Assembly (NCBI GenBank): GCA_019057475.1
Contig: DXJO01000041.1
Location: 114,217 to 178,216, forward strand
Direction of reading: 5' to 3'
From: Candidatus Thorarchaeota archaeon
GTDB lineage: Archaea; Asgardarchaeota; Thorarchaeia; Thorarchaeales; Thorarchaeaceae
DNA length: 64,000 nucleotides
In this document: in pieces, positions 11,320-25,763 of the stretch
How the letters are laid out: each line of letters starts with the position of its first letter
Position numbering within the stretch: the stretch's first letter is position 1
The notes under the pieces: model-generated
Seen by the model: the letters and a program-made list of their open reading frames with translations, nothing else
What the model was told of the DNA's origin: nothing
Database searches by the model: none
Position numbers and translations under genes: made by a program

Positions 11320-11370
11320 GGGCAATAGGCCATGCGCCTGCTGCCCACTGCAACTTCTTTTTTCATTTTT
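11320..11370 (+). terminator. Hairpin plus T-tract after the r-protein operon
   Basis: GGGCA-ATAGGC...GCCTG-CTGCCC followed by TTCTTTTTTCATTTTT. Confidence 0.55.
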
Positions 11371-11713
11371 ATCAGGCTGATATAGCTGAAAAGCTATAAC
11401 ACGCTCTGAGTACATTCATAGACAGGAAGAATCTGATGACCTTCTATCCGGGAAAGGAATGACCAAGATGAAGATAGTGTATCATCCTCTGATGAGAGAA
11501 AGCTATGACCGTACACCCGCAGGAGCCCCTGGGAGATTGGAGACCTCTGTGAAAATCCTGAGCAAACACCCAGACTACGAGTTTGTAAAGGCAAGGTCTG
11601 CGACCGAAGAAGAGATCAATCGAGCTCATGCTCCGGGTCACATCGAGAGGGTGAGGCGGGACTATGACTCAACAAGGGAGGACCTACTGTATCAGGTAGC
11701 GACCTTGGCGGCA
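11353..11713 (+). repeat. Left copy of ~360-bp imperfect direct repeat (HDAC promoter plus 5' coding region)
   Basis: Matches 25401-25763; by manual count 28 mismatches in 323 nt over 11391-11713. Confidence 0.95.
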
Positions 11714-11779
11714 ACACTATCGGTTATTATCGATCATGCTGATGAGCTTAATTCAGAAATATCGAAGTTCATCGGTTAA
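11459..11779 (+). pseudogene. Truncated HDAC-family 5' copy fused in frame to an alpha/beta-hydrolase-like C-terminal remnant
   Basis: First ~85 aa nearly identical to 25509 ORF; lacks GHHA/DxH/GGY; tail VIIDHADELNSEISKFIG resembles hydrolase C-terminus VIIEKYEEFNNEVMNFID. Confidence 0.8.
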
Positions 11780-11788
11780 AATACAGAT

Positions 11789-12217
11789 CTAGAGTGACAT
11801 AATCTTGATGAGGGCTTCACCTTCAATGACAACTTCTTGGTTCTGATTTGTACATAAGGTCTTCAAAGTGACTCGTTGCTTCTCATCGTTAAGAGAAGCT
11901 ACCTCGACCCTAGCAGTTATTGTGTCACCAATTCTGACTGGCCCCATGAAATTCATACTCTGTCCTAAATATATCGTCCCGGGACCGGGTAATTTCATGC
12001 CGATGGCAGCACTGATGAACGAAGCAGTGAGCAGTCCATGAGCAATTCGTCCATTAAACATCGTAGTCTTAGCCCATTCTTCATCGAAGTGCAATGGATT
12101 GTAATCTCCACTAAGGTCTCCGAATGTCTGAATATCCTCCTCTGTGATAGTATGTGTTACCTCTGCAAATTGTCCAATGTGAAGATCAGAATATTTTGTC
12201 GCTTTTATTTCATTCAC
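11789..12217 (-). CDS. MaoC/PhaJ-type (R)-enoyl-CoA hydratase
   Basis: Hydratase-2 motif SGDYNPLHFD, IAHGLL, LPGPGTIY; start inferred (GTG overlapping upstream stop). Confidence 0.9.
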   Translation of the reverse strand: MNEIKATKYSDLHIGQFAEVTHTITEEDIQTFGDLSGDYNPLHFDEEWAKTTMFNGRIAHGLLTASFISAAIGMKLPGPGTIYLGQSMNFMGPVRIGDTITARVEVASLNDEKQRVTLKTLCTNQNQEVVIEGEALIKIMSL

Positions 12218-13235
12218 CTTTCCACATTCCCCATTTGATTGTAATCGCATTCCATGACCAGCCAATCCCAGCAGCGGTCAAAACAACAATGTTCCCATCC
12301 TTTATCTTTCCATCCTTTAGACCTTCTTCAACTGACACAATCGAATCGTTTTGACCCATATGTCCCCATTCATCGAAATATGTTGCTTGATTATATGGAT
12401 GAACACCTAGTTCATTTGCTACGAACTCAAAGGCACTTCTCTTCATTCTGATGAGCCCAAGATAGTCAATATTCTTTCGAGTATATCCACTCTTCTCTAA
12501 TGATTCATCTACGACTTTCAAGAAATTGGTCATTGATAGTCTATCAAGACGGTCTTTCAACCCTGGAGGATCAGTGACATCCAAGTACTGCATGCGTTTC
12601 TCAATCGCCTCACATGTGATAGGAATGACAGTGCCACCTGCAGGTACATAGACATCTTCTGAAAATTGGCCATCTGTGATGACGCTTCCCTCTAGGATGA
12701 CATTTTGTGGATAATCATTACGAAGAATCATGGCGACTCCACTGGCAGCTAAATCATGCATGAATCGTGTCCGGATATTCGAGTAGTCTATGAGATCACA
12801 GTTCCTGTATCCACTGCCAATTAGAACCCGTTTGTATCCTTGGGTTTCCATTAAAGACTTGGCAATGATCATGGCAACAACAATTGTGCCGCATCTCTGG
12901 TTGACATCAAACGCCCAAGCTTTTGTTGCACCCACCTCGTTTTGGAACTTGATGGCATAGGTTTGCATAGGATGCTCTGCGTAAACCTCGCCAGCCCAAA
13001 TCACTAAGTCAATATCCTTTGCAGGATCTAGCCCCGCTCGTTCTATAGCAATCTTTGCAGCCTTCACGCCCATTGCCACAGTGTGATCATCTGGACCAGG
13101 CACAGCCTTACTCTTCATACCCATCTTCGTTTCAATTATCTCTGCTGGAGTTCCAGATTGTTCAGATATGTATTGAGCAGTATGCCTCTCAGGAGGTATA
13201 TAGGTGCCAATCGCTTCAATTCCAATCTTTCTCAT
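12210..13235 (-). CDS. KAS III/FabH-like thiolase-fold enzyme (Cys-Arg-His/Asp variant)
   Basis: FDVNQRCG (catalytic Cys), LIRMKRS, GHMGQND, AAGIGWSW. Confidence 0.9.
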   Translation of the reverse strand: MRKIGIEAIGTYIPPERHTAQYISEQSGTPAEIIETKMGMKSKAVPGPDDHTVAMGVKAAKIAIERAGLDPAKDIDLVIWAGEVYAEHPMQTYAIKFQNEVGATKAWAFDVNQRCGTIVVAMIIAKSLMETQGYKRVLIGSGYRNCDLIDYSNIRTRFMHDLAASGVAMILRNDYPQNVILEGSVITDGQFSEDVYVPAGGTVIPITCEAIEKRMQYLDVTDPPGLKDRLDRLSMTNFLKVVDESLEKSGYTRKNIDYLGLIRMKRSAFEFVANELGVHPYNQATYFDEWGHMGQNDSIVSVEEGLKDGKIKDGNIVVLTAAGIGWSWNAITIKWGMWKGE

Positions 13236-14767
13236 TTCGCATCCTCCAACTCTCTTTTCAGAATTTTGCCTGTTGCGCTTTTGGGTAGGTTTCCACGAAA
13301 TTCGTAATGCTTAGGAATCTTATAACTTGCAAGTTTATCATCCATATACTGTCTTATTTCGTCCTCTGCTAGTGATTCTCCATCCTTCAAGACAATGAAC
13401 ACCTTTCCGACTTCTCCCCACTTTTCATGTGGCACTCCAATTACAGCAGCCTCAAGTATTGCAGGGTGCTTGTATAGTACATCTTCAATCTCTGAGGGAA
13501 ATACATTTTCTCCCCCTGAAATGAACATATCTTTCTTGCGACCAACTATATAGTAGAACCCATCACTATCACGCATGACGAGGTCTCCTGTATGCACCCA
13601 TCCATCAGATTCAATGACTTTTGCTGACTCTTCAGGTTCCTCCCAATAACCACTGAATGTATGAGGTCCTCTCAACATCAACTCACCTACCTCCTCATCT
13701 GACAGCGTTACATTGTCATCATCAACTATCTTCATATCACAGTGGAATGCAGGAAAACCAACAGATGTTGGTCTTTCCTTAACAGCATCATCAGGTAAGT
13801 AGAAATTATTAGGTCCTACTTCAGTGAGTCCATACCCCATTTTTAGAATCTTACCTCTCTCCCAGTATTTTTCCATTATCGCAACAGGACATGGAGCACC
13901 TCCACTGATGAACGATCTAACATGTTCAAAGTTTGTCTTCTTGAAATTCGATGATTGAGATATCATGTTAAACACGGTAGGGACGCCAATCACGATTGTG
14001 CATCTCTCGCTCTCAACTACTCTCAGTGTTTCTTCAGGATCAAAGTCGCCCATGATTATACTTAATGCTCCAAGATGATAGAATGGTATGAGAAGTACAT
14101 TGATTCCTCCTGTATGAAAGAGTGGAAAGAGTAGTGGTTGAATATCATCTGGTCTAAGTCCCCATGAAACAATCGTATTAACTGAGTTCCAGAATACCAA
14201 TCTGTGTGATAGAACAGCACCTTTGGGTAGGCCTGTAGTTCCGCCTGTGAAGACGATCAAGAAAGGATCATCCATTGTGATTGCTGGTCGTTCTACTGCA
14301 CTGGAGGATTTTCTGGTCATGAGCGAATAAATATCGGGGTCAGTATCAAACATCTTATTTCCCATGACGACTACAAGCTGTTTTTCAAGGAGCGGACGGA
14401 TTTTCCCAAACTGGATTCTCAAATTGGGGTCATAGAATACTATAGAGGGGTTTGTCTTTTTCAAAAGGTATTCAGTTTCGGGTGTGGTAAGCCGAATGTT
14501 AAACGGAGTCAGAATGGCTCCTATCTTTCCACAAGCAAAGAGGATGTCAAGAAATTCGAACCTGTTCTTAGAGTAGATGCCTACTCGGTTTCCCTTTTGT
14601 ACTCCTGAATCAAGTAATAATCTTGCTACTTGATTCGCTCGTTTATCCATTTCTTCGAATGTGTATCTCTTATTCTGGATGTTGTCAACTATTGCTTCCT
14701 TTTTTGGAGTCAAGAGCGCTCTTCTTCCAGTCCAATCTCCTATCCAAGACCAATCTTTCAGGTTCAT
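13232..14767 (-). CDS. Acyl-CoA synthetase (AMP-forming)
   Basis: FTGGTTGLPKG, GYGLTE, TGD, GRKKDMFISGGEN, PKSATGK. Confidence 0.95.
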   Translation of the reverse strand: MNLKDWSWIGDWTGRRALLTPKKEAIVDNIQNKRYTFEEMDKRANQVARLLLDSGVQKGNRVGIYSKNRFEFLDILFACGKIGAILTPFNIRLTTPETEYLLKKTNPSIVFYDPNLRIQFGKIRPLLEKQLVVVMGNKMFDTDPDIYSLMTRKSSSAVERPAITMDDPFLIVFTGGTTGLPKGAVLSHRLVFWNSVNTIVSWGLRPDDIQPLLFPLFHTGGINVLLIPFYHLGALSIIMGDFDPEETLRVVESERCTIVIGVPTVFNMISQSSNFKKTNFEHVRSFISGGAPCPVAIMEKYWERGKILKMGYGLTEVGPNNFYLPDDAVKERPTSVGFPAFHCDMKIVDDDNVTLSDEEVGELMLRGPHTFSGYWEEPEESAKVIESDGWVHTGDLVMRDSDGFYYIVGRKKDMFISGGENVFPSEIEDVLYKHPAILEAAVIGVPHEKWGEVGKVFIVLKDGESLAEDEIRQYMDDKLASYKIPKHYEFRGNLPKSATGKILKRELEDAK

Positions 14768-15129
14768 TGTTCAATCTCTTTTGATTCAGAATGAAAACAT
14801 TCTCAAGTATTAGTCTTACTGAAGATAGAGTTACTATTAGACACTTATTACTTTGAAAATCTATTAGAGTCTTGCATAAGAGAACTATCTGATTGACTCT
14901 TTGTTCCATATCCTCGAATGCGTATCTTGCAAGAATGTCACCTCTCCGCCTATTCCTCTCCTTAGAATCAATGGTGTCTTTCATTTCATTCTCCCGAGGT
15001 GCTTTACTATTTGTTCCAGATTTGCATTAAGAGGCAAAATCTGTCCAAAAGACATATTATTGGCTGAAATCAAACTCCTTAAGGATAACCAACCTTTGAT
15101 GTATCATATCAGTTCAGGAGGAAGTTGAA

Positions 15130-15924
15130 TTGTCCTCAACGAATGAGTTCATCCTTAGCACAAGTGGGTTAACCAAGAATTTTGATGGTCTAATTGCCGT
15201 TGATGATGTAAGTCTAGATGTCGAAAGAGGTTCGATAAAATCAATCATCGGCCCGAATGGTTCAGGCAAAACTACTTTTTTTAATCTCATTACAGGAGCC
15301 CTCCCTCCTTCGTCTGGAAAGATATATTTCGAAGGTCAAGATATAACTCGATTTTCAATGCATCAACGTACACGACAAGGTATATCACGATCGTATCAGA
15401 TCACGAATATTTTCCCATATCAGACAACATTTGAAAATATACGGTTGGCAGCTCAGGGCTGTAGTGGTGCAAAAGTAAATTTCTTTGGAATGTTAAAGAA
15501 AGCAGGCTCATTTAGCGAGTTTCATGAGAAAGTAATTGATATAGCAACACTTGTGGGTCTTAATCCTGCGAGACTCTATGTCCCAGCCGCTTTGATCCCA
15601 CATGCCGAACAAAGAAAACTTGAAATCGCGATGGCCCTCGCTACCGAGCCGAAACTCCTCTTACTTGACGAACCTGCTGCTGGAATATCAATAGAAGAGA
15701 TACCAGATGTTATTGATGCTATTTTGCGGGTCAAAGAATCCTATGGGGATCAACTAACGCTATTAGTAGTTGAACATAAAATGGACATTGTTATGAAACT
15801 CAGTGAGGAGATTGTTGTTCTTTCAGAAGGAAAAATGATTGCAAAAGGTTCTCCAAAGGAGATCCAAGAAAATGAACAAGTATTGACAGCTTATCTCGGT
15901 GGTACAGATGAAAAACTTGCTTGA
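15130..15924 (+). CDS. Liv-type ABC ATPase (LivG-like)
   Basis: GPNGSGKTT, LLLDEPAAG, VEH, AYLG. Confidence 0.93.
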   Translation: MSSTNEFILSTSGLTKNFDGLIAVDDVSLDVERGSIKSIIGPNGSGKTTFFNLITGALPPSSGKIYFEGQDITRFSMHQRTRQGISRSYQITNIFPYQTTFENIRLAAQGCSGAKVNFFGMLKKAGSFSEFHEKVIDIATLVGLNPARLYVPAALIPHAEQRKLEIAMALATEPKLLLLDEPAAGISIEEIPDVIDAILRVKESYGDQLTLLVVEHKMDIVMKLSEEIVVLSEGKMIAKGSPKEIQENEQVLTAYLGGTDEKLA

Positions 15925-16627
15925 AATACAAAATGCTCACGTATACATTGGTTCCTTCTACATTCTGCAAGGAATCTCACTAGTCGTGCCTAAAGGAGAA
16001 GTTACTCTATTACTGGGTAGGAACGGCTCTGGAAAAACTACTACAATGAAATCAATACTCGGTATATATCCACCAAAAGAAGGAAAGATTGTCTTCAAGG
16101 GTGAGGAGATATCCAATCTCCCTACCCATAAGATAGTCAACAAAGGCATGGGATATGTCCCTGATACAAGAAGGATATTTGGAACACTGACGGTTGAACA
16201 GAATCTAGTTGTGTCAATGAGGAAGGGAAGCTCGCGAGAAGACATGCAAAAACGATTGGATCTAATCTTCGATTTGTTTCCTGACATGAAAGGGTTTCTG
16301 AAACAGAGAGCAGGTACTCTATCAGGTGGTCAACAGCAAATGCTAGCTGTTGCCCGTGCATTGATGAATGAAAATGATTTGTTGCTCATCGACGAACCTA
16401 CAGAGGGCTTGAGTCCCCTTTTAGCTAAGAACCTTATCGACTCTCTTGACAGACTAAAGGAATTTGCTACTATCTTACTGGTTGAACAGAACTTTCGGAC
16501 AGTGTCTAAGCTGGGTGATAACTACTACATTTTCGATAATGGAAAAATCGTTCATGAGGGCACCAACATGTCTGAGTTAATAGACGACAAGGCACTTGTT
16601 GCACAATACTTGGGGGTAAGCATTTAA
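15908..16627 (+). CDS. Liv-type ABC ATPase (LivF-like)
   Basis: GRNGSGKTT, LSGGQQQM, IDEPTEGL, VEQN. Confidence 0.93.
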   Translation: MKNLLEIQNAHVYIGSFYILQGISLVVPKGEVTLLLGRNGSGKTTTMKSILGIYPPKEGKIVFKGEEISNLPTHKIVNKGMGYVPDTRRIFGTLTVEQNLVVSMRKGSSREDMQKRLDLIFDLFPDMKGFLKQRAGTLSGGQQQMLAVARALMNENDLLLIDEPTEGLSPLLAKNLIDSLDRLKEFATILLVEQNFRTVSKLGDNYYIFDNGKIVHEGTNMSELIDDKALVAQYLGVSI

Positions 16628-17739
16628 TGACTATGCAAACAAAGAGATTCTCTCCTCGGGACTACTTGGAGGAAAACCCACAGGTTCGCAAATTGTTGAG
16701 GATTACAGTGGTGATTGCACTCATAATAATAGGGGGTCTATTGGTTTTAGCTGCGATAGACGTCTATACATGGAACGGATTCGTTGTAAGGGCTAGCAAA
16801 TCACTAGTTAATGGTCTTGCACTCAGCATGTTGCTCTTCTTGATGGTCTCTGGTTTCTTCTTGATCTTTGGTCTATGCGACGTAATCAATTTCGCGCACG
16901 GCGCGTTCTTTATGTTGGGAGGTTTCATGGGTTTCGTAATCTATCTCGGAACCGAGGCTGTTTTCCTAGACCCAGCCCTACCGTTCTATCTTATCTTCGG
17001 AGCTAATCAATTTGCCTTGTCAGTCACGGCCTTTATTGTAAGTGCCCTTGGAGCCGCAGCAGTTCTGGCTCTTATTGGTGGAGGAATAGAGTTCTTTACA
17101 ATTCGGCGGCTTTACGGTAATCCTATCGCTCAGATACTGCTGACAGTTGGTTTTATGTTCGTTATCACTCAGATTGTCGAGATTATCTGGGGGCCTTCAC
17201 AGTTTTCCTATTTCATTATTTCCAATTCGCAAATAACCTACTTCTTCATTAGTGGTTTACTTGATTTTGGCGGAGGGCTGCAATTTGCTGTTTACCGTAT
17301 TTTCTTGATTTTTCTAGGGTTAGCAGTTGCTGGATTAATGTTTATAGGGTTCAGAAAGACACGTATCGGACTCCTGGTACAAGCAGGTATAGAAGATTCA
17401 GAGATGGTTGAAGCATTAGGGACTGATATCAGAAAATTGTTTACAATTGTATTTATGTTGGGTGCAGGTCTTGCGGGACTATCAGGGGCTGTCCTAGTCC
17501 CGTGGATTGGAGCAAACTCGGGTCATGGTCTCACATACCTCATATTCGCATTTGTCATAGTTGTCGTTGGAGGCGCCCATTATGGTCGCCTTGAAGGGAC
17601 TTTCTTTGGTGCACTTATAGTCGGTCTATCAATTCAATTTACATCATATTTCATTCCATTTCTTGAGAACATTATTGTATTCATAATTATGGCGATTATT
17701 CTGATAGTAAGACCAGGAGGATTAACGGGTCATGAATAA
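16627..17739 (+). CDS. Liv-type ABC permease (LivH-like)
   Basis: VINFAHGAFFMLG, GAGLAGLSG, RPGGL. Confidence 0.92.
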   Translation: MTMQTKRFSPRDYLEENPQVRKLLRITVVIALIIIGGLLVLAAIDVYTWNGFVVRASKSLVNGLALSMLLFLMVSGFFLIFGLCDVINFAHGAFFMLGGFMGFVIYLGTEAVFLDPALPFYLIFGANQFALSVTAFIVSALGAAAVLALIGGGIEFFTIRRLYGNPIAQILLTVGFMFVITQIVEIIWGPSQFSYFIISNSQITYFFISGLLDFGGGLQFAVYRIFLIFLGLAVAGLMFIGFRKTRIGLLVQAGIEDSEMVEALGTDIRKLFTIVFMLGAGLAGLSGAVLVPWIGANSGHGLTYLIFAFVIVVVGGAHYGRLEGTFFGALIVGLSIQFTSYFIPFLENIIVFIIMAIILIVRPGGLTGHE

Positions 17740-19336: not shown

Positions 19337-19403
19337 GATGGAGTTGATGGTATGATCAAGATTTCATCAAGAAAGAAGGTTGAACGAAAAGTGGGTGATT
19401 GTC

Positions 19404-20222
19404 TTGCCATATGAAACTATCGGAGACATCGATATCTATTACGAGATTCATGGACCACCTGAGGCTCCACCACTTGTGTTGATAGGAGGATGGGCTAGTT
19501 ATCGTTGGATATGGTTTCGACAAATTCCTGCCTTCAAAGAAAGATACAGATGTGTTGTGTTTGATAATCGTGGAGCAGGAAGAAGTTCCAAGCCTGACCA
19601 TCCATATACTATGGAAATGTTCGCTGATGATGTTGTTGGTCTGATAGAAGCATTGGATATCGAAAACGCACATATCATAGGGATTTCAATGGGTGGATTC
19701 ATTGCGCAGCAAATTGCGATTTCCTATCCCGAAAAGGTTCGAAGCTTGATCATTGTTTCTAGCAGCTTTGGAGGGCCTAATTCTATTCCTATGGATGATA
19801 AAACAATGGCCATGTTAATTGCTCTTCCAACTGAAACAATATCAAAAGAGCAAGCGAGGGAGATGCGCTATAAAGCTACTTTCAGTACACAATTCCTCCA
19901 AGAAAACAGGTTAGTGATAGATCAGATAGATGAATGGGCTGAACGGCATCCTACGCCGGTATATGCACAAGTGCATCAAAGCTCAGCAGCAAAATCGTTT
20001 AATGCTGAATCGGAAGTGAAACAAATATCTACACCGACACTTATCTTACACGGAGATAGTGACCTTTGTTTTCCACCTAAGAATGCAGAACTGCTAGCTA
20101 ATAGCATATCCACATCGAAATTGAAAATTATAGAGGGCGCATCACATTTTGTCATCATTGAAAAGTATGAAGAGTTCAATAATGAGGTAATGAATTTTAT
20201 AGACGAAGTGGAAAAAGGATGA
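19404..20222 (+). CDS. Alpha/beta hydrolase
   Basis: DNRGAGRS, GISMGG nucleophile elbow, HGDSD, ASH; TTG start after GGGTGA. Confidence 0.92.
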   Translation: MPYETIGDIDIYYEIHGPPEAPPLVLIGGWASYRWIWFRQIPAFKERYRCVVFDNRGAGRSSKPDHPYTMEMFADDVVGLIEALDIENAHIIGISMGGFIAQQIAISYPEKVRSLIIVSSSFGGPNSIPMDDKTMAMLIALPTETISKEQAREMRYKATFSTQFLQENRLVIDQIDEWAERHPTPVYAQVHQSSAAKSFNAESEVKQISTPTLILHGDSDLCFPPKNAELLANSISTSKLKIIEGASHFVIIEKYEEFNNEVMNFIDEVEKG

Positions 20223-20295
20223 CTTATTCCTGAGCCCAAAAGGAAGGTGATTTGGCAAGGAAAAGAATGTTGGGCCCGATAAGCAAACTTAGAGG

Positions 20296-21315
20296 ATGAT
20301 GTTTATGGTTCGTTCAGCTGTGGTCACAGGTCTGGGAATGTATGTTCCTGAAAAGATGTTGACAAATGAAGAAATTGAGCTAGTGCTTGATCGTCCTGGA
20401 ACAGCAGATTGGTTGGTGGAGAATGTTGGCATCAGACAACGTCACGTCATGGCTGAAGATGAGGTGACATCTGATCTTGCTCTTCATGCTGGTCGTGAAG
20501 CATTAGAAAATGCAGGATTGGAAGCAGACGATCTCGACCTAATCATTTTGAGTACTGACACACCGGACTATCTATCTCCAGCAACATCAGTAGTGGTTCA
20601 GCACAAACTCGGTGCGAAGAATGCAGGTACTTTTGACGTCAATTGTGCTTGTGCAGGTCTGGTTACTTCTTTGGACATAGCCTCCCGCTATATTAGAACA
20701 GATTTTGACATCAATTCGGTTTTGGTGATTGGGGCATACGGAATGACCAAATTTGTTGATTGGACAGACCATTATACTTGTACTTTGTTTGCGGATGCTG
20801 CAGGAGCAATGGTACTGCAGGCCAGTGAGGATAGAGAAGGATTCATTGCCTCTGAATTAATAGCGGATGGCTCATTCCATGACCATTTGGGGATATTTGT
20901 CGGAGGAACGGCAGAACCCCCAACAGTTGAAGCGATCCAGAATCACAGGCACCATCTAGCTTTTCGCAAACGCTTTCCGGCCGATACAAACCTTCAACAT
21001 TGGCCAACTATGACAAGAGATTGTGTATCAAAGGCTAATCTGTCCATCGAGGATATCGACTGGATTTTCTTCACTCAGGTGAACATACGAACTATTGAGG
21101 CGGTAATGAAGGAACTAGGTATGCCACTTGAGAAGACTCACAATGTTCTGGATAAATGGGGGTACACGGGTTCAGCTTGTATTGCATTGGCGATGTACGA
21201 TGCCATTGAACAAGGGAAACTTCCACCTCCCGGACAGGGAAACGGCGAGAATATAGCACTCTGCTCATCCGGGGGAGGTTTCAACATGGCTGCCGCCGTT
21301 CTAAGATGGTGGTAA
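20296..21315 (+). CDS. KAS III/FabH-like enzyme (Cys-Thr-Tyr variant)
   Basis: GIRQRH, FDVNCACAG, LFADAAGA; FTQVN in place of HQAN, GYTGSA in place of GNTSA. Confidence 0.9.
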   Translation: MMFMVRSAVVTGLGMYVPEKMLTNEEIELVLDRPGTADWLVENVGIRQRHVMAEDEVTSDLALHAGREALENAGLEADDLDLIILSTDTPDYLSPATSVVVQHKLGAKNAGTFDVNCACAGLVTSLDIASRYIRTDFDINSVLVIGAYGMTKFVDWTDHYTCTLFADAAGAMVLQASEDREGFIASELIADGSFHDHLGIFVGGTAEPPTVEAIQNHRHHLAFRKRFPADTNLQHWPTMTRDCVSKANLSIEDIDWIFFTQVNIRTIEAVMKELGMPLEKTHNVLDKWGYTGSACIALAMYDAIEQGKLPPPGQGNGENIALCSSGGGFNMAAAVLRWW

Positions 21316-21401
21316 TGGATTTTTATTTTGGTTGTGGCTGATTACACAAGAAGCGATTATGCCTATTGAGCAAGAATAGAACTCATATCGAGGGGATACT
21401 A

Positions 21402-22952
21402 ATGGTTAATCAGTTTGACTATCTATCCAAGAGAGATATCTTCTCTCCCGAGGCTGAAGCTCTAGTTGATGTAGAAACCGGGAAAAGATATTCGTATAGA
21501 GCGTTCAACAAACGCGCGAATAAGGTTGCCAACTTCCTTCAACAAGTAGTTGAATTTCAAAAGGGGGATCGTTTATGCATTCTTGCTCAAAATAGCTTGG
21601 AATACTGGGAAGCATTTTTCGGATGTCAGAAGTGCGGAGGTATTTTCAGTCCACTCAACTGGCGTTTGGTCGCCCGAGAATTAGCAGGTTTGGTCAATGA
21701 TCTTAATCCCTCCGTGTTACTCTATGATTCAGACTTAGCTAATGTTGCATCAGAGTTGAAGCAAGAAGTCACGGTTGATCACTGGATCTCATTGGATTCA
21801 AAAGGAACAGAAGTGGAAGGTTCTCTATGCTATGAGGAAGTTATGAATAAAGCAGCATCCAGTCCATCTAATGCTGTAGATCTCTCTTATGAAGATCCAA
21901 TGGGCATCGTGTTTACCGGGGGGACAACGGGACTACCAAAAGGTGCAATGATTACTTACAATCAAGTTGCATTCAATACTCTTAGTACCATTAGGGACAT
22001 CCTTCCAGGTGATGTCTACATAAATCATCTACCCCTATTCCATGTCGGTGGACTCTATGTGTATGCCATTCCACTCTTCATTTTGGGCGGAAAAGTAGTC
22101 CAGATGAAGAGATGGGATCTTGACACCTTAGTGGGTGTGATCAACAAGGAAAATCCCAACTTCTTCTTTGCCGTGCCCACGCAATACCGTATGCTGATGA
22201 ACCATCCCGATTTTCGATCAATTGACTTCAGTAACGTTCGGTTCTTGACTTCTGGAGGTGAACCCTTACCTCTGGACATCATCAAGACATACAGGGAGGC
22301 ACATGGTGTCAAATTCAAACAAGGGTTTGGAATGACAGAAGTTGGACCAGGATGTTTTGCTCTTGACCCATGGGACGCTGAGCGAAAGATTGGCAGCATT
22401 GGTACTCCTAACTTCTTCATTGATGCAAAAGTAGTTGATCCTGAAACTGGAAAGGATTGTGATGCAAATGAGGTGGGTGAACTTCAATTTAGAGGGCCCA
22501 CGGTGACTATCGGTTACTGGAATCGTCCAGAGTTGAATAAGACACTCCTAGATGAAGGCGGCTGGTTTCGGACAGGTGATATGGTGTATTTTGATGAGGA
22601 AGGGTATTACTACGTAGTTGATCGAGTGAAGGACATGTTCATCTCTGGGGGTGAGAATATCTATCCAAGAGAGATTGAGAAGCTCTTAGAAGAACACCCA
22701 AAGATTGCTCAAGTACAGGTGATTGGAGTACCTGATTCCAAATGGGGGGAGGTAGGACGCGCCATTGTTGTCTTGAAGGAAGGACAAGAAGCCTCGGAGG
22801 AAGAGATAATCGACTATTGTGGAAGGAAATTGGCCAGATTTAAGATTCCAAAATCAGTACGCTTCGCAGAAAGTTTCACACAATATATCTCAGGGGCCGG
22901 AAAGATTCTGAAGCGAAGATTAAGGGAAGATTTTGGCCAAGAGGAGAAATGA
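21402..22952 (+). CDS. Acyl-CoA synthetase (AMP-forming)
   Basis: FTGGTTGLPKG, GFGMTE, TGD, DRVKDMFISGGEN, GAGK. Confidence 0.95.
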   Translation: MVNQFDYLSKRDIFSPEAEALVDVETGKRYSYRAFNKRANKVANFLQQVVEFQKGDRLCILAQNSLEYWEAFFGCQKCGGIFSPLNWRLVARELAGLVNDLNPSVLLYDSDLANVASELKQEVTVDHWISLDSKGTEVEGSLCYEEVMNKAASSPSNAVDLSYEDPMGIVFTGGTTGLPKGAMITYNQVAFNTLSTIRDILPGDVYINHLPLFHVGGLYVYAIPLFILGGKVVQMKRWDLDTLVGVINKENPNFFFAVPTQYRMLMNHPDFRSIDFSNVRFLTSGGEPLPLDIIKTYREAHGVKFKQGFGMTEVGPGCFALDPWDAERKIGSIGTPNFFIDAKVVDPETGKDCDANEVGELQFRGPTVTIGYWNRPELNKTLLDEGGWFRTGDMVYFDEEGYYYVVDRVKDMFISGGENIYPREIEKLLEEHPKIAQVQVIGVPDSKWGEVGRAIVVLKEGQEASEEEIIDYCGRKLARFKIPKSVRFAESFTQYISGAGKILKRRLREDFGQEEK

Positions 22953-23761
22953 CAATGCCAGTCAGCAAAGTAAATGGAATAGACATCTATTATGAAATCC
23001 ATGGTGAAGGTGAACCAGTTATCTTTGGAAATGGTGTTTTTTCTAATACATTAGGTTGGATTAATCAAGTCCCAGTTTTCTCCAAAGAGTATCAAGTCAT
23101 TCTGTACGATATGCGTGGGCAAGGACAGAGCGACAAGCCAGAATCTCCCTATTCCTTTGATATCCATGCCGAAGATCAAAAGGCACTTCTTGAAGACATT
23201 GGCATTTCCAAAGTTCATCATGTTGGAATTAGCTACGGAGCCGAACTCGGTCTGGTCTTTGCGCTGAAGTATCCTGAAATGTTGAAGAGCCTCGTTGCTT
23301 GTAGTGCCGTTTCGCATGTGGGTCCCTTGCTCAATGAGATGTGTCAATTATGGAGATATGCCTGTGAGCTTGGAGATCCTGAGTTATTTTATCACGCTAC
23401 TGTCCCCTTAAATTTTGGAGAAACTTTCATTCGAGAAAATACCGCTATTTTGGAACAGGCGAAGGTTCGTTATACTCAACTAGATTATCCACCACTTGTG
23501 AGATTATGTGATGCTTTCCTCATGCTTAATATCACAGACCAACTATCAAAGATCAAAACACCCACCTGTGTTATCGGGGGTGAGAAGGACATCGTAAAAC
23601 CGGTTTATCCGTATTCGCGTATGATTCATGATAAATTGCCTAATTCGGAAATGGTCATTGTTCGTGATTCGGGTCATGCTGTAACATTCGAAAAACCTGA
23701 AGAGTTCAACAGCATAGTTCTAGGGTTCTTACACAAACAATCCCAGAAACACACTCTTTAG
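22949..23761 (+). CDS. Alpha/beta hydrolase (enol-lactonase-like)
   Basis: YDMRGQGQS, GISYG, GEKD, SGH. Confidence 0.92.
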   Translation: MTMPVSKVNGIDIYYEIHGEGEPVIFGNGVFSNTLGWINQVPVFSKEYQVILYDMRGQGQSDKPESPYSFDIHAEDQKALLEDIGISKVHHVGISYGAELGLVFALKYPEMLKSLVACSAVSHVGPLLNEMCQLWRYACELGDPELFYHATVPLNFGETFIRENTAILEQAKVRYTQLDYPPLVRLCDAFLMLNITDQLSKIKTPTCVIGGEKDIVKPVYPYSRMIHDKLPNSEMVIVRDSGHAVTFEKPEEFNSIVLGFLHKQSQKHTL

Positions 23762-23833
23762 AGAAAAGCAGTTCTTCGTTTCTTCTTAATTTGCTAAGAG
23801 ATAAATAGTAGCAAACCCACCATAATGGTTACG

Positions 23834-23854
23834 CATAGAACATTCTATGTTCTA
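23834..23854 (+). promoter_or_regulatory. Overlapping inverted repeats (operator candidate) upstream of the SBP gene
   Basis: CATAGAA-CA-TTCTATG and TAGAACAT-TCT-ATGTTCTA, downstream of TATA-like ATAAATA (23801). Confidence 0.35.
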
Positions 23855-23903
23855 ACTCTAACAGTATTCTCGCAAAAGAAGTACTGTTTAGGGAGGATAG
23901 AAG

Positions 23904-25358
23904 ATGAAAAAAATAAGAACGATATCTCTATCTCTTTCGTTGCTATTATTAGTATCCATTTTCCTACCTTGTTTCTTTGTTAAACCAGCTGCTGCACAAA
24001 CAACTCCAATTAAGATTGGAATTTTCACCCCCGAAACAGCAGGTCTGACAGCTTATGGACCTTGGACAAAACAAGGCTTCGAGTTGGGAATGGTGTATGC
24101 AACCACGATGATGGGATATGACAATGAGAACATGACCGAAGCAGGTCGGCCCTATGAACTTCATTATTATGATACGAAAGGTTCAGTGGTCGATGCAGCA
24201 ACCAAAGCAGTAGAAGCTATCGAAACCGATGGTATTGACATTCTCGTCGGAGCAACTTCTAGTGCAGTTGCCGCAGCAATAGCACCTATTGCCGAAGATT
24301 ACGAGAAGCTATATTTCATATCTCCAGCTGCTGCTTCTTCGCTAACTGCAGAGGACTTTAATCCGTACATTTTCCGTATCGCCAGAAATAACTGGCATGA
24401 TGCCTATGCAGGCGTCACGTATGCTATGGATGAAAATTACCTCAACTATTCGAGATTTGCCTTTCTTGCTGCTGATTATTCCTTTGGATATAGTGGCGTT
24501 CAATCAATGAAAAGTGTAATAGAGGACAGGGGAGGATCGGTGCACAGTATCCAGTATGCATCTCTTTGGGATACTGATTTCTCTCAAGAGATTGATGCTC
24601 TCAAAGCTGCTGATGCAATATGGGGTATTGAGTATTTGTTCATCATTTGGGCTGGAAACTTCGCTTATCTATACAATGATTTAGCAACATACAATCTTGC
24701 AGCTGACATGGAAATTGCTGGAGCATGTATTGATATCCTTTCCATGAACTCCATTGAAGCGAGTTTGACTGCTCCAGGTGCGACCTACATCAATTCCACT
24801 GGGCTCTGTCTATATGGTTATGAACTACCAAACAATGCGGTTAATGACTGGATGGTGGATCAACATGTCACCAGAAACATTAAGCCAAATGGTCAATATG
24901 GACTCCAATATAAAGTTCCAGAGCTTTTCACTGCAAGTGGGTTTGCTACGGCACAATTCTTGGTAGATGTGACGAATGCTATCCCGGACCTTAATACTGG
25001 TTTGATGATCAACTATCTCGAAAGTGGTGTTACCATCAACACCCCGAAGGGACCAACATACTTGAGACCAGAGGATCATCAAGGGCTTGCGGAGATGTAT
25101 ATCGCGAAAGCTGTGAATGATACCCGACCTGGGTCTGAAACAGAAAATCTCATCATTGCCGAATTGGTTGAGATCCTCGACCGTAACGCGGTTGCACCTC
25201 CAATTGCGTCTGGTTATACACCAGGTGGATTTGCACCAACAACAACAACAACAACAACAGCACCACCCCCAGCATTTGATTACTTGACTATCACAGTGAT
25301 TGGTGGACTTGGAGTAGTAATAATCGTGCTCATTGTGCTTTTAGTGCGGAAAAAGTAA
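23904..25358 (+). CDS. LivK/LivJ-like substrate-binding protein with C-terminal membrane anchor
   Basis: Signal peptide, IKIG, DILVGATSSAVA, NPYIFR, ADYSFG; T7-PPP linker, TM helix, RKK tail. Confidence 0.92.
   Translation: MKKIRTISLSLSLLLLVSIFLPCFFVKPAAAQTTPIKIGIFTPETAGLTAYGPWTKQGFELGMVYATTMMGYDNENMTEAGRPYELHYYDTKGSVVDAATKAVEAIETDGIDILVGATSSAVAAAIAPIAEDYEKLYFISPAAASSLTAEDFNPYIFRIARNNWHDAYAGVTYAMDENYLNYSRFAFLAADYSFGYSGVQSMKSVIEDRGGSVHSIQYASLWDTDFSQEIDALKAADAIWGIEYLFIIWAGNFAYLYNDLATYNLAADMEIAGACIDILSMNSIEASLTAPGATYINSTGLCLYGYELPNNAVNDWMVDQHVTRNIKPNGQYGLQYKVPELFTASGFATAQFLVDVTNAIPDLNTGLMINYLESGVTINTPKGPTYLRPEDHQGLAEMYIAKAVNDTRPGSETENLIIAELVEILDRNAVAPPIASGYTPGGFAPTTTTTTTAPPPAFDYLTITVIGGLGVVIIVLIVLLVRKK
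25239..25259 (+). repeat. (ACA)7 encoding the poly-Thr linker
   Basis: Read directly from the sequence. Confidence 0.9.
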
Positions 25359-25370
25359 TGGTACAACTTG

Positions 25371-25420
25371 AAGGTTCAAGCTGGTTTAACTTGAACCTTT
25401 ACTCCTTTTTTTTATTTTTT
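25371..25420 (+). terminator. 10-bp hairpin plus long T-tract
   Basis: AAGGTTCAAG-N9-CTTGAACCTT then CCTTTTTTTTATTTTTT. Confidence 0.7.
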
Positions 25421-25763
25421 GTCAAGTTGATGTGGCTGAAAAGCTATAACACGCTCTGAGTACATTCATAGACAGGAAGAAGCTGATGCCCGTCTATCCG
25501 GAAAAGGAATGGCCAAGATGAAGATAGTGTATCATCCTTTGATGAGTGAAAGCTATGACCGTACACCTGCAGGAGCCCCTGGAAGGCTGGATACCTCTGT
25601 GGAAATCCTGAGCAAACACGCAGATTATGAGTTTGTGGAGGCAAGGCCTGCAACCGAAGAAGAGCTCAATCGAGCTCATGCTCTGAGTCACATCGAGAGG
25701 GTGAAGCGGGACTATGACTCAACAAGGGAGAACCTATTGTATCAGGTAGCGACCCTGGCCGCA
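25401..25763 (+). repeat. Right copy of the ~360-bp direct repeat
   Basis: Matches 11353-11713 at an offset of ~14,050. Confidence 0.95.

What the first reader, a model, noticed from the sequence alone, without database searches (positions are those of the whole stretch)
11789..25358. ACP-independent twin-KAS III acyl-ester module with a dedicated importer (best candidate novel system)
Seen: two divergent operons, [acyl-CoA ligase-KAS III-MaoC] and [LivGFHM-hydrolase-KAS III-acyl-CoA ligase-hydrolase] plus an SBP. There is no ACP, malonyl transferase, reductase or regulator in the island. Known: archaea make isoprenoid ether lipids; MaoC/PhaJ yields (R)-3-hydroxyacyl-CoA; Liv-family ABCs also import organic acids. 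Inference: a CoA-based pathway that imports and activates acyl compounds and makes or breaks acyl esters, e.g. scavenging (R)-3-hydroxyalkanoate/PHA oligomers or building a small acylated metabolite. This is relevant to fatty-acyl chemistry in Asgard archaea. Similar-looking clusters may exist in bacteria and haloarchaea; I know of no established function.
Basis: partly seen in the sequence, partly recalled or inferred. Interest (0 to 1): 0.85.

Follow-up and report, generated by a model that had tools for sequence, protein, structure and literature searches.

The report
Mobile Asgard acyl-CoA scavenging island
A 14-kb horizontally transferred gene island in a Thorarchaeote couples an organic-acid importer, esterases and CoA ligases to two uncharacterised ketosynthase-like enzymes that cannot work like ordinary fatty-acid synthases; it most likely scavenges acyl esters and shows how Asgard archaea handle fatty-acyl compounds without an acyl carrier protein.

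Summary
In detail: all 12 genes lie where stated in a Thorarchaeota genome that has no ACP, FabD or biotin carboxylase. The cluster is two separable modules. Core module A (LIG1-KAS1-MaoC) occurs in 116 of 400 Asgard genomes, and ligase->KAS1 is adjacent in 75 of 80 loci. Accessory module B (LivGFHM, SBP, two esterases, KAS2, LIG2) occurs in 39 of 400 and almost only together with A, in at least five different gene arrangements. Neither KAS is a FabH. KAS1 has invariant Cys115-His292-Asp297 (+Lys265), the triad of the CerJ/ChlB3 acyltransferases. KAS2 has Cys119/Thr260/Tyr290/Cys295, with no precedent I know. MaoC is replaced by an SDR or an a/b-hydrolase in other lineages. One bacterial operon fuses the KAS1 domain to a CoA-transferase beside a Liv importer and three hydrolases. 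A deltaproteobacterial homologue lies among PHA genes. The island is an insertion: low GC, a 360-nt flanking repeat, empty sites in congeners, and proteins 87-96% identical across genera where ribosomal P0 is 69-73%. Best reading (about 0.5): CoA-based uptake and processing of organic-acid esters, possibly 3-hydroxyalkanoate oligomers. Substrate and KAS chemistry are inferred, not shown. Other first-stage notes of this scan flagged the same stretch.

The parts
11354..11713 (+). Left copy of the 360-nt direct repeat (P1-HDAC intergenic region plus the first ~90 codons of the HDAC gene). It is part of the chimeric ORF 11459-11779 and marks the left junction of the island.
   Evidence: 90% identical to 25405-25763. 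Congeners G004, G005 and G006 have P0-P1-HDAC contiguous with no island.
11789..12265 (-). MaoC-type (R)-specific enoyl-CoA hydratase (module A). The true start is probably some 15-20 codons downstream of the listed TTG.
   Evidence: PF01575, 92.7 bits; intact hydratase-2 motif G-D-Y-N-P-L-H; relatives align from about residue 18.
12210..13235 (-). KAS1, a KAS III-fold protein of NCBIfam family PRK06840. Invariant residues are Cys115, Lys265, Ser267, His292 and Asp297. Arg263 stands where most of the family has His. No FabH His244/Asn274 pair.
13232..14767 (-). LIG1, an acyl-CoA ligase and the invariant upstream partner of KAS1.
   Evidence: adjacent and co-directional in 75 of 80 loci; complete A3/A5/A7/A8/A10 motifs
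14768..15129 (.). Divergent intergenic region. A conserved BRE/TATA-like element lies at 15044-15060 upstream of livG. A ~200-nt insert is found only in this genus.
15130..19336 (+). LivG, LivF, LivH and an unusually long LivM (534 aa): ATPases and permeases of a HAAT-family ABC importer (module B).
19380..20222 (+). ABH1, a cytoplasmic serine a/b-hydrolase (G-I-S-M-G). It is always directly upstream of KAS2.
20296..21315 (+). KAS2, a FabH-derived KAS III-fold protein with invariant Asp88, Cys119, Thr260, Asn263, Tyr290 and Cys295. It has no His in either catalytic motif. The annotated start in relatives is at residue 4.
21366..22952 (+). LIG2, a second acyl-CoA ligase, 39% identical to LIG1.
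22949..23761 (+). ABH2, a second cytoplasmic serine a/b-hydrolase (G-I-S-Y-G), 30% identical to ABH1.
23904..25358 (+). Substrate-binding protein (Peripla_BP_6) with a signal peptide, a Thr-rich linker and a C-terminal membrane anchor.
25405..25763 (+). Right copy of the 360-nt direct repeat, forming the start of the intact HDAC-like gene (25509-26300). It marks the right junction.

Best explanation
This is a horizontally mobile, ACP-independent, CoA-dependent uptake-and-processing island built from two conserved modules. SHOWN: Module A (LIG1->KAS1->MaoC) is a widespread Asgard unit. Module B (HAAT-type ABC importer with anchored SBP, two cytoplasmic serine esterases, LIG2, KAS2) occurs almost only in genomes that also have A, and is usually beside it. 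Both ligases, MaoC and both hydrolases have intact catalytic motifs. Neither KAS has FabH's Cys-His-Asn triad. INFERRED mechanism: the importer takes up a hydrophobic organic acid or a small ester or lactone of one, not Leu/Ile/Val. ABH1 and ABH2 open ester bonds in the cytoplasm. LIG1 and LIG2 convert the acids to CoA thioesters. KAS1 loads the acyl group on Cys115, activated by the His292-Asp297 pair as in CerJ/ChlB3, and passes it on. That step is acyl transfer to or from an O/S nucleophile, or thiolase-like C-C chemistry at a beta-oxo position, without malonyl-ACP. MaoC (an SDR in other lineages) interconverts (R)-3-hydroxyacyl-CoA, so the flux can enter the host's beta-oxidation enzymes. 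KAS2 (Cys119/Tyr290/Cys295) does a second, unknown Cys-dependent step tied to ABH1. The net role is salvage or catabolism of beta-hydroxy/beta-oxo acyl esters. (R)-3-hydroxyalkanoate or PHA oligomers are my favoured substrate class, at about 0.3 on its own.
For: Gene content and motifs. No ACP, FabD or biotin carboxylase, but at least 5 acyl-CoA dehydrogenases in the genome. KAS residues are fixed across families. KAS1 Cys115-His292-Asp297 matches ChlB3 Cys113-His296-Asp301 and CerJ Cys116-His295-Asp301 (PMC9573744), and an ungapped alignment puts His292 on His296 and Asp297 on Asp301. Ligase->KAS1 is adjacent in 75 of 80 loci. A Rosetta-stone fusion joins KAS1 to a CoA-transferase inside a LivHMGF-SBP-ABH-[fusion]-ABH-ABH operon. 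A transporter lies beside KAS1 homologues in every lineage sampled: ABC, MFS, SSF or the ~10-TM N4 protein. MaoC, SDR and hydrolase interchange next to KAS1. A PHA-gene context (PhaR, PHB_depo_C, Esterase_PHB) surrounds a 63%-identical deltaproteobacterial KAS1. No PHA synthase was found in this genome or in 400 Asgard genomes, which favours scavenging over synthesis. Co-occurrence: KAS1 in 116 of 400, KAS2 in 39 of 400, and 33 of the 39 also have KAS1. A and B are linked in at least 5 arrangements. The SBP is closest to R. palustris SBPs (135 bits), not to Leu/Ile/Val binders, and such COG0683 SBPs mostly bind aromatic, fatty and dicarboxylic acids beside CoA-ligase/beta-oxidation operons (PMC3223731). 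RNA-library contigs cover MaoC, KAS1, LIG1, ABH1 and SBP (weak).
Against: No substrate, product or activity is shown for any protein. By overall sequence and fold KAS1 is nearest to true FabH (TM 0.85-0.93), and CerJ/ChlB3/DpsC are not among the top 50 fold matches; the ChlB3 alignment is weak (E = 1.4). Most KAS1 relatives outside Thorarchaeota have a His one position from FabH His244, giving a DpsC- or KAS I/II-like His-His set, so the family may condense. KS next to KR or DH is also the classic biosynthetic order. The ligases are closest to a feruloyl-/fatty-acyl-CoA synthetase and to FadD13, not to short-chain or 3-hydroxyacid ligases. The PHA context rests on one contig. The hydrolases are generic (best matches PcaD and Est1, all below family cut-offs). 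Expression evidence has no silent-DNA control.
Confidence: 0.5

Rival explanations
1. Biosynthetic reading. An imported or endogenous acid is activated as a primer. KAS1 and/or KAS2 extend or couple it (Claisen condensation, or ester or amide formation) to make a small acylated metabolite, a 3-hydroxyacyl product or a lipid precursor, much as PqsA/PqsD/PqsBC or DpsC do. MaoC or the SDR act as DH or KR.
For: The thiolase/KAS fold is normally used for condensation. The wider KAS1 family has a His-His-Asp set like DpsC, a priming ketosynthase. KAS1-SDR and KAS1-MaoC adjacency looks like KS-KR or KS-DH. PqsC and PqsD are among the structural and sequence matches. In the deltaproteobacterial PHA cluster, KAS1-SDR could replace PhaA-PhaB.
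Against: There is no reductase, ACP, exporter or tailoring gene in the island. The genome has no biotin carboxylase for malonyl-CoA and no ACP or FabD. Thor KAS1 has Arg in place of the first His, and KAS2 lacks both His. Importers and esterases are the most constant partners. No PHA synthase was found in 400 Asgard genomes.
Confidence: 0.22
2. Same catabolic logic with a different substrate class. Aryl-alkanoates such as hydroxycinnamate or phenylpropanoid esters from plant detritus are imported, de-esterified and CoA-activated, and the side chain is shortened beta-oxidatively. KAS1 would stand in for the thiolase.
For: Both ligases are closest (342 and 325 bits) to a solved enzyme deposited as feruloyl-CoA synthetase. 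The SBP is closest to R. palustris SBPs, an organism whose HAAT SBPs bind aromatic acids. The hydrolases could be feruloyl esterases (faint BD-FAE hit on the Loki-type hydrolase). An Amidohydro_2 protein lies near Loki-type loci.
Against: The same PDB sequence is also deposited as a fatty-acyl-CoA synthase, and FadD13 scores nearly as well. The solved aromatic-acid SBPs (4EVS, 4F06) score only about 23 bits. No ring-degradation genes are in or beside the island. The BD-FAE hit is below its cut-off.
Confidence: 0.12
3. An Ole-type or beta-lactone pathway: an OleA-like thiolase, an OleC-like AMP enzyme and an OleB-like a/b-hydrolase making olefins or beta-lactones.
For: The parts list looks superficially similar (thiolase-fold, AMP-binding and a/b-hydrolase proteins). 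ABH2 has a weak haloalkane-dehalogenase-type hit (61 bits).
Against: There is no OleD-type reductase. OleA structures match only KAS2 residues 23-145 (62 bits) and do not match KAS1. The ligases score as acyl-CoA ligases near the PRK06187 cut-off and have full thioesterification motifs. A dedicated importer is not expected for olefin synthesis.
Confidence: 0.03
4. [quoted passage not shown]
For: Pfam and NCBIfam names; KAS2 passes the PRK09352 FabH subfamily cut-off (268 against 249 bits); the fold is FabH-like.
Against: The His244/Asn274 pair is replaced in both proteins and the replacements are fixed across their families. KAS1 lacks the ACP-docking Arg249. The genome has no ACP, FabD or biotin carboxylase.
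Confidence: 0.02
5. Modules A and B are neighbours by accident of one transfer event and have no shared function.
For: Module A occurs alone in 83 genomes. A and B are far apart or on different contigs in G383, G100, G011 and G396.
Against: 33 of 39 KAS2 genomes also carry KAS1. The two are linked in at least five different gene orders across Thor-, Heimdall- and Hodarchaeota and an unassigned metagenome contig. An independent bacterial operon joins the same functions.
Confidence: 0.04

Closest known systems
HAAT-family ABC importer linked to CoA-ligase/beta-oxidation operons (R. palustris RPA3723-3725 beside pimFABCDE; PMC3223731)
   Same: A Liv-type ABC transporter with a Peripla_BP_6/COG0683 SBP sits next to an acyl-CoA ligase and enzymes acting on 3-hydroxy or enoyl-CoA. 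Such SBPs bind fatty, dicarboxylic and aromatic acids rather than Leu/Ile/Val.
   Different: There is no thiolase, acyl-CoA dehydrogenase or crotonase in the island. In their place are two KAS III-fold proteins with remodelled active sites and two esterases. The system is archaeal, has a membrane-anchored SBP, and is mobile.
KAS III-like acyltransferases CerJ, ChlB3 and DpsC (PMC9573744)
   Same: KAS1 shares the thiolase/KAS III fold and a nucleophile (Cys) plus His at the FabH-Asn274 position plus Asp five residues later. It is CoA-dependent, and Thor KAS1 has no malonyl-decarboxylation pair.
   Different: KAS1 is not in their clade by sequence or fold rank; FabH is closer. Those enzymes work in actinomycete polyketide tailoring with ACPs or sugars. 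KAS1 has an extra invariant Lys265 and a conserved ligase partner. The acceptor is unknown.
[quoted passage not shown]
   Same: Both proteins have the fold and the active-site Cys. KAS2 shares about 30% identity with FabH and keeps Arg249 and Asn247.
   Different: Neither has the His244/Asn274 pair. The genome has no ACP, FabD or biotin carboxylase. The gene context is an importer, ligases and esterases.
PqsABCDE alkylquinolone pathway
   Same: It also combines a CoA ligase, two kinds of KAS III-like enzyme (one with an incomplete triad, PqsC) and a hydrolase acting on a CoA thioester. It is ACP-independent.
   Different: PqsC keeps the His244 equivalent and lacks the Asn, the opposite pattern to KAS1. 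PqsE has a metallo-beta-lactamase fold. The pqs cluster has no importer, and this island has no anthranilate genes.
Archaeal fatty-acid synthase complex of S. acidocaldarius (ketothiolase/DUF35 + SDR + MaoC-HCD + enoyl reductase; bioRxiv 10.1101/2024.07.05.601840)
   Same: It is ACP-independent and CoA-based and uses a MaoC-type (R)-hydroxyacyl-CoA dehydratase.
   Different: The island has no ketothiolase, DUF35, ketoreductase or enoyl reductase. Here the thiolase-fold enzyme is KAS III-like and is tied to a ligase, esterases and an importer.
Lower beta-ketoadipate pathway PcaD-PcaIJ-PcaF, and the PHA mobilisation cycle (PhaZ/oligomer hydrolase, PhaJ, PhaB); both from general knowledge
   Same: Both follow the logic of a hydrolase opening an ester or lactone, CoA activation by a ligase or transferase, then a thiolase-fold enzyme. 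ABH1 and ABH2 score best against PcaD. MaoC and the SDR correspond to PhaJ and PhaB acting on (R)-3-hydroxyacyl-CoA.
   Different: All hydrolase hits are below family cut-offs. No canonical thiolase, PcaIJ, PhaC or phasin is present. The resemblance is of pathway logic, not of membership.

Membership tests
FabH / KAS III (decarboxylating 3-oxoacyl-ACP synthase III) | ACP_syn_III N- and C-terminal domains on a thiolase fold | tested here: met
   for both proteins. KAS1 model has pLDDT 95 and TM 0.85-0.93 to FabH structures.
FabH / KAS III (decarboxylating 3-oxoacyl-ACP synthase III) | Cys112-His244-Asn274 catalytic triad | tested here: not met
   KAS1 has Cys, Ile/Leu at 244 (Arg or His at 245) and His at 274. 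KAS2 has Cys, Thr and Tyr. The replacements are fixed across ~40 and 13 diverse family members.
FabH / KAS III (decarboxylating 3-oxoacyl-ACP synthase III) | ACP and a malonyl-ACP supply in the genome (ACP, FabD, acetyl-CoA carboxylase) | tested here: not met
   No PF00550, PF00698 or PF02785 match in the 96%-complete genome.
NCBIfam PRK06840 (uncharacterised '3-oxoacyl-ACP synthase' equivalog) | Whole-protein score above the curated cut-off | tested here: met
   KAS1 scores 412.5 bits against a cut-off of 315. No functional data for this family were found.
CerJ/ChlB3-type KAS III-like acyltransferases | Nucleophile Cys plus His at the FabH-Asn274 position plus Asp five residues downstream | tested here: met
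   KAS1 Cys115, His292 and Asp297 are invariant in 35 diverse sequences. An ungapped alignment to ChlB3 puts His292 on His296 and Asp297 on Asp301. Triad definitions come from PMC9573744. KAS2 does not meet this feature (Tyr290/Cys295).
CerJ/ChlB3-type KAS III-like acyltransferases | Membership of the clade by overall sequence or structure similarity | tested here: not met
   DpsC scores at most 28 bits and ChlB3 has E = 1.4. None is among the top 50 Foldseek matches, which are all FabH, PqsD, BioZ and similar.
CerJ/ChlB3-type KAS III-like acyltransferases | Acyl-transfer activity (C-O, C-N or C-S bond formation) from an acyl thioester | not testable with these tools
   This needs enzyme assays.
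OleABCD / beta-lactone synthetase clusters | OleA-type thiolase, OleD reductase, OleC beta-lactone synthetase and OleB hydrolase together | tested here: not met
   No reductase is present. OleA structures match only part of KAS2 (62 bits) and not KAS1. The ligases behave as acyl-CoA ligases.
HMG-CoA synthase-like Glu-Cys-His enzymes | Catalytic Glu in the G-S-E motif, plus the His244 and Asn274 equivalents | tested here: inconclusive
   Bacterial KAS1 relatives have G-S-E aligned with the genome's own HMGCS G-S-E-S. The Asgard subfamily has A-G-E, one residue off. HMGCS keeps the His244 and Asn274 equivalents, which KAS1 lacks.
HAAT (Liv-type) ABC importer | Two ABC ATPases, two BPD_transp_2 permeases and a Peripla_BP_6 SBP | tested here: met
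   The SBP has a signal peptide and a membrane anchor.
HAAT (Liv-type) ABC importer | Specificity for Leu/Ile/Val | not testable with these tools
   The LivJ-type model scores only 25.6 bits against a cut-off of 477. The best solved relatives are unassigned R. palustris SBPs. Published screens show that most such SBPs do not bind Leu/Ile/Val.
[quoted passage not shown] | A ketothiolase-DUF35 pair with a ketoacyl-CoA reductase and an enoyl-CoA reductase | tested here: not met
   Only a MaoC homologue is present in the island.
PHA synthesis/mobilisation gene set | PhaC synthase, or a depolymerase or oligomer hydrolase above its family cut-off | tested here: not met
   No TIGR01836 or PF07167 match in the genome and none in 400 Asgard genomes. 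ABH1 and ABH2 score 65-89 bits against a cut-off of 300 for the intracellular depolymerase model. PHA genes surround only a deltaproteobacterial homologue.
MaoC / (R)-specific enoyl-CoA hydratase (PhaJ-like) | Hot-dog fold with the hydratase-2 motif (Asp and His) | tested here: met
   PF01575 at 92.7 bits; motif G-D-Y-N-P-L-H at residues 53-59.

The most novel reading that the evidence does not exclude
The invariant ligase->KAS1 pair is a previously unrecognised two-enzyme system in which a thiolase-fold Cys-His-Asp enzyme makes or thiolytically breaks oxo-ester bonds of hydroxyacyl compounds. That would be a KAS III-fold counterpart of PHA synthase/depolymerase chemistry. Alternatively it feeds scavenged acyl chains into Asgard cell constituents without ACP. 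KAS2 (Cys/Tyr/Cys) would be a second new catalytic type. This would be a widespread, Asgard-centred route of fatty-acyl ester metabolism.
Probability: 0.15. Interest if true: 0.85.

Novelty: new variant of a known kind. Interest (0 to 1): 0.6.

Why it matters
Whether and how Asgard archaea, the closest prokaryotic relatives of eukaryotes, handle fatty-acyl compounds bears on the 'lipid divide' and on models of eukaryogenesis. This work defines two uncharacterised KAS III-fold families that databases mislabel as 3-oxoacyl-ACP synthases. One of them (KAS1) occurs in about 29% of 400 Asgard genomes and always sits next to a CoA ligase. Both operate in genomes with no ACP. The work gives residue-level hypotheses that can be tested (Cys115/His292/Asp297; Cys119/Tyr290/Cys295), a defined accessory importer whose SBP can be screened for ligands, and evidence that the whole unit moves between genera as a metabolic island in marine-sediment and cold-seep populations. 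It also warns against reading these genes as evidence of bacterial-type fatty-acid synthesis in Asgard genomes.

Tried and rejected
1. Complex prediction of LIG1 with KAS1 gave no verdict (score 0.00). It is not evidence either way.

2. The protein atlas look-up for KAS1 returned only generic '3-oxoacyl-ACP synthase' clusters.

3. Literature searches for Thorarchaeota/KAS III, KAS III-like acyltransferase plus ligase, and 3N0X/3NND found no description of this cluster and no ligand for the closest solved SBPs.

4. The HMG-CoA-synthase-like Glu-Cys-His idea is inconclusive and is not adopted.

5. An obligate KAS1/KAS2 heterodimer (PqsBC-like, raised in earlier notes) is rejected. KAS1 occurs without KAS2 in 83 genomes, and the only tandem KAS pair found is KAS2-KAS2.

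6. The multi-PAS histidine kinase divergent from lone module A is too common a family in these genomes to count as a regulator.

7. No palindromic operator was seen in the divergent intergenic region, only a BRE/TATA-like element. The ~200-nt extra insert there is not a repeat.

8. The Loki-type neighbours RsmB, QueT, Nre, DUF362, NMO and Amidohydro_2 look like lineage synteny rather than pathway genes.

9. RNA-library contigs leave LivG/F/H, KAS2, LIG2 and ABH2 uncovered. This is not evidence of silence.

10. The first genome-collection scan, with a broad alignment, failed for lack of conserved stretches. It was repeated with closer sequences, so distant bacterial members such as the Bacillus-type PRK06840 proteins were not surveyed by organism name.

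11. P0241, P0106 and P0248 gave no informative context.

Full report
OBSERVATION. On the minus strand are MaoC (11789-12265), a KAS III-like protein (KAS1, 12210-13235) and an AMP-dependent ligase (LIG1, 13232-14767). On the plus strand are LivG, LivF, LivH and LivM (15130-19336), an a/b-hydrolase (ABH1, 19380-20222), a second KAS III-like protein (KAS2, 20296-21315), a second ligase (LIG2, 21366-22952), a second a/b-hydrolase (ABH2, 22949-23761) and a Peripla_BP_6 substrate-binding protein (SBP, 23904-25358). The upstream genes are archaeal ribosomal proteins L1, P0 and P1. Database names of close homologues identify the organism as a Thorarchaeote. The island contains no ACP, malonyl transferase, reductase or regulator. 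The whole genome (3.34 Mb, 96% complete) has no PP-binding/ACP match, no FabD-type acyltransferase and no biotin carboxylase, but at least five acyl-CoA dehydrogenases.

THE ISLAND IS AN INSERTION THAT MOVES BETWEEN GENERA. Its GC content is 0.40-0.43 against about 0.49 in the flanks. It is bracketed by a 360-nt direct repeat at 90% identity (11354-11713 and 25405-25763). The repeat consists of the P1-HDAC intergenic region plus the first ~90 codons of the HDAC-like gene. Three congeners (G004, G005, G006) have P0-P1-HDAC contiguous, which is the empty site. G003 has the filled left junction and also a contig with the unfilled arrangement; that is either a population polymorphism or an assembly collapse across the repeat. 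Island proteins are 87-96% identical to copies in other genera, whereas the adjacent ribosomal protein P0 is only 69-73% identical in those same genomes. No integrase is present. Near-identical DNA occurs in marine-sediment and cold-seep metagenomes from about 12 studies.

TWO SEPARABLE MODULES. Synteny in relatives shows module A (LIG1-KAS1-MaoC) standing alone in many genomes, and module B as a collinear nine-gene block LivGFHM-ABH1-KAS2-LIG2-ABH2-SBP.

- Counts. Across 400 Asgard genomes KAS1 is present in 116 (33 of the 90 high-quality ones) and KAS2 in 39. Of those 39, 33 also have KAS1. The remaining six are incomplete MAGs or carry only 42-46%-identical homologues. Eighty-three genomes have KAS1 alone. 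B is therefore an accessory to A.
- Linkage. The two modules lie 5-11 kb apart in at least 15 genomes. They are divergent in Thorarchaeota. In Heimdallarchaeota LC_3 the order is LIG1-MaoC-KAS1 divergent from SBP-LivGFHM-ABH-KAS2. A metagenomic contig has LIG1-SDR-KAS1 divergent from SBP-LivGFHM-ABH. Two Hodarchaeota contigs have all twelve genes co-directional in two different orders, and one complete Thorarchaeota chromosome has the modules convergent. They are unlinked in at least four genomes. So many independent arrangements argue for a functional link.

THE INVARIANT CORE IS LIGASE->KAS1. In 80 loci from named genomes, LIG1 lies immediately upstream of KAS1 and co-directional with it in 75; the exceptions are mostly contig ends.

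- The third gene varies. It is MaoC in Thor-, Hod- and Heimdallarchaeota. It is a convergent a/b-hydrolase in 36 of 43 Loki/Hermod/Hod-type loci. It is an SDR in the metagenomic contig L037, in a deltaproteobacterium and in another bacterial operon.
- A transporter is nearly always adjacent. It is the Liv-type ABC system, MFS proteins, an SSF symporter or, in Loki-type loci, an unannotated ~10-TM protein (N4) directly upstream of LIG1.
- One fused form exists. A single 798-aa protein joins a KAS1-type domain (41% identity, same signature) to an acetyl-CoA hydrolase/CoA-transferase. It sits in the bacterial operon LivHMGF-SBP-ABH-[fusion]-ABH-ABH behind a sigma-54 activator.

The recurring functional set across two domains of life is therefore an importer, one or more esterases, an acid-activating enzyme and KAS1.

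WHAT THE KAS PROTEINS ARE NOT, AND WHAT THEY RESEMBLE. Both have the KAS III domains. KAS1 passes the NCBIfam equivalog PRK06840, for which I found no functional data, and KAS2 passes the FabH subfamily model.

- Neither has FabH's Cys112-His244-Asn274 triad.
- KAS1. Across 35 sequences down to 27% identity, the invariant residues are Lys37, Cys115, Lys265, Ser267, His292 and Asp297. His292 occupies the FabH Asn274 position and Asp297 lies five residues later. That is the arrangement described for the KAS III-like acyltransferases ChlB3 (Cys113-His296-Asp301) and CerJ (Cys116-His295-Asp301), where the His-Asp pair activates the Cys for acyl transfer (PMC9573744). An ungapped alignment to ChlB3 puts His292 on His296 and Asp297 on Asp301, although the match is weak at E = 1.4.
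- KAS1 is not in that clade. Its model (pLDDT 95) is closest to true FabH structures (TM 0.85-0.93), and CerJ, ChlB3 and DpsC are not in the top 50. KAS1 may work like a CerJ/ChlB3-type enzyme, but it is not a member of that family.
- An important nuance. Most KAS1 relatives outside Thorarchaeota read L-L-H-M-K, with a His one position from FabH His244. That gives a DpsC- or KAS I/II-like His-His set. The Thor clade has Arg there in 75 of 79 sequences. Condensation therefore cannot be excluded for the family at large.
- ACP docking. KAS1 has Ser in place of the ACP-docking Arg249.
- KAS2. It is FabH-derived (186 bits to FabH structures), but its invariant set is Asp88, Cys119, Thr260/Asn263, Tyr290 and Cys295, with no His in either motif. 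I know of no characterised precedent. ABH->KAS2 adjacency is conserved even in a distant lineage, where two KAS2-type genes are in tandem.

THE OTHER PARTS.

- Ligases. Both have complete adenylation and thioesterification motifs. Both are closest to a solved enzyme deposited as feruloyl-CoA synthetase and as fatty-acyl-CoA synthase, and next to FadD13. That places them among medium-chain or aryl-alkanoate ligases, not OleC-like enzymes.
- MaoC has the intact hydratase-2 motif.
- Hydrolases. Both have G-x-S-x-G nucleophile elbows and no signal peptide, so they act in the cytoplasm. Their best matches (PcaD enol-lactonase, the metagenomic esterase Est1, macrolide esterases, PHA depolymerase models) are all below family cut-offs.
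- SBP. It has a signal peptide, a Thr-rich linker and a C-terminal anchor. It is far closer to two unassigned R. palustris SBPs (135 bits) than to any Leu/Ile/Val binder. Published thermal-shift screening shows that such COG0683 SBPs mostly bind aromatic, fatty and dicarboxylic acids and sit beside CoA-ligase/beta-oxidation operons such as pimFABCDE (PMC3223731).
- Promoter. A conserved BRE/TATA-like element lies about 75 nt upstream of livG.
- Expression. RNA-library contigs 97-99% identical to the window cover MaoC, KAS1, LIG1, part of LivM, ABH1 and the SBP. This is weak evidence of expression because no silent-DNA control could be run.

MOST LIKELY MECHANISM. The steps that are shown are the gene content, the intact catalytic motifs, the absence of ACP, FabD and biotin carboxylase, the fixed non-FabH active sites, and the conserved coupling of importer, esterases, activating enzyme and KAS1. 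The rest is inferred, as follows.

- The ABC system imports a hydrophobic organic acid or a small ester or lactone of one.
- The cytoplasmic esterases open ester bonds.
- The ligases make CoA thioesters.
- KAS1 forms an acyl-S-Cys115 intermediate and passes the acyl group on. This is either acyl transfer to or from an oxygen or sulfur nucleophile, or thiolase-like chemistry at a beta-oxo position, without malonyl-ACP.
- MaoC, or the SDR that replaces it elsewhere, acts on (R)-3-hydroxyacyl-CoA. That marks this compound, or its 3-oxo or enoyl neighbours, as the common intermediate and connects the pathway to the host's beta-oxidation enzymes.

A catabolic or salvage direction is favoured because importers and esterases are the most constant partners. 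The island also has no reductase, exporter or tailoring gene, a malonyl-CoA supply is not evident, and no PHA synthase exists in this genome or in 400 Asgard genomes. The specific substrate guess, (R)-3-hydroxyalkanoate or PHA oligomers, rests on the MaoC/SDR (PhaJ/PhaB-like) interchange and on one deltaproteobacterial contig. In that contig a 63%-identical KAS1 lies among PhaR, PHB_depo_C/DUF3141, Esterase_PHB, an SDR and an SSF transporter. I give the general model about 0.5 and the 3-hydroxyalkanoate substrate about 0.3.

RIVALS. A biosynthetic role, meaning primer-dependent condensation or acylation as in PqsABCDE or DpsC, stays at about 0.22 because of the His-His set in the wider family and the KS-KR or KS-DH look of the gene pairs. 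An aryl-alkanoate (hydroxycinnamate ester) substrate is at about 0.12 on the ligase and SBP similarities. Ole-type/beta-lactone chemistry, ordinary FabH function and chance juxtaposition of the two modules are each disfavoured by tested features (see the membership table).

COMPARISON WITH KNOWN SYSTEMS AND NOVELTY. In pathway logic the island resembles importer-linked CoA-ligase catabolic clusters (pimFABCDE with RPA3723-3725) and hydrolase-activation-thiolase sequences (PcaD-PcaIJ-PcaF). It is not the archaeal ketothiolase/DUF35 fatty-acid synthase. What is new is the pair of uncharacterised KAS III-fold families at its centre, their conserved partnership with a ligase, and an accessory importer module, packaged as a mobile island in Asgard archaea. 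I found no paper describing it. I rate it a new variant of a known kind, with interest 0.6. These genes should not be read as evidence of bacterial-type fatty-acid synthesis in Asgard genomes.

Noticed in passing
window 11354-11779 and 25405-25763: The island is flanked by a 360-nt direct repeat at 90% identity, made of the HDAC gene's upstream region and first ~90 codons. The left copy continues into a chimeric 106-aa ORF (11459-11779). There is no integrase, so the mechanism of insertion (for example single-crossover integration of a circular intermediate carrying an HDAC fragment) is unexplained.
   Followed up: partly
L038 (G003:C54) and L043 (G003:C190): The same congener MAG has both an unfilled P0-P1-HDAC contig and the filled P1-HDAC'-MaoC-KAS1 junction. 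The island is either polymorphic in that population or the assembler collapsed the repeat.
   Followed up: no
window 11496-11769 (run X18): A metagenome contig of a close relative skips 272 nt of the left-junction remnant and has 21 other letters there. The decayed HDAC fragment therefore varies between strains.
   Followed up: no
window about 14830-15040: The divergent intergenic region has a ~200-nt insert seen only in this genus (other Thorarchaeota have ~130-210 nt in total). It is unique in the genome and overlaps a 99-aa ORF (14685-14984) with no family hit.
   Followed up: partly
window 17732-19336: The LivM permease is unusually long (534 aa). The Pfam permease domain matches best at residues 288-474, and extra predicted transmembrane segments lie in the N-terminal part. 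The length is conserved (510-543 aa) in Heimdall and metagenomic versions of module B.
   Followed up: no
L082:7191-8420 and homologues in 31 Loki-type loci: N4 is a ~409-aa Trp/Phe-rich protein with about 10 predicted transmembrane segments and no Pfam family. It lies directly upstream of LIG1-KAS1 and may be a new transporter family. Next to the convergent hydrolase lies N5, a 277-aa secreted protein with a C-terminal anchor and no family.
   Followed up: partly
L126:9001-11397 (P0393): A bacterial 798-aa fusion of a KAS1-type domain with an acetyl-CoA hydrolase/CoA-transferase, inside a sigma-54-controlled Liv-importer operon with three a/b-hydrolases. This may be a tractable bacterial model of the system.
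   Followed up: partly
L014:11778-14378, L018:5444-7309, L019:6518-9121: Where module A stands alone in Thorarchaeota, a multi-PAS histidine kinase (620-990 aa) often sits divergently in the position that module B occupies here.
   Followed up: partly
G356: One Thorarchaeota MAG (9% contamination) carries two KAS2 copies, 96% and 90% identical to the window's. This is either strain mixture or duplication of the island.
   Followed up: no
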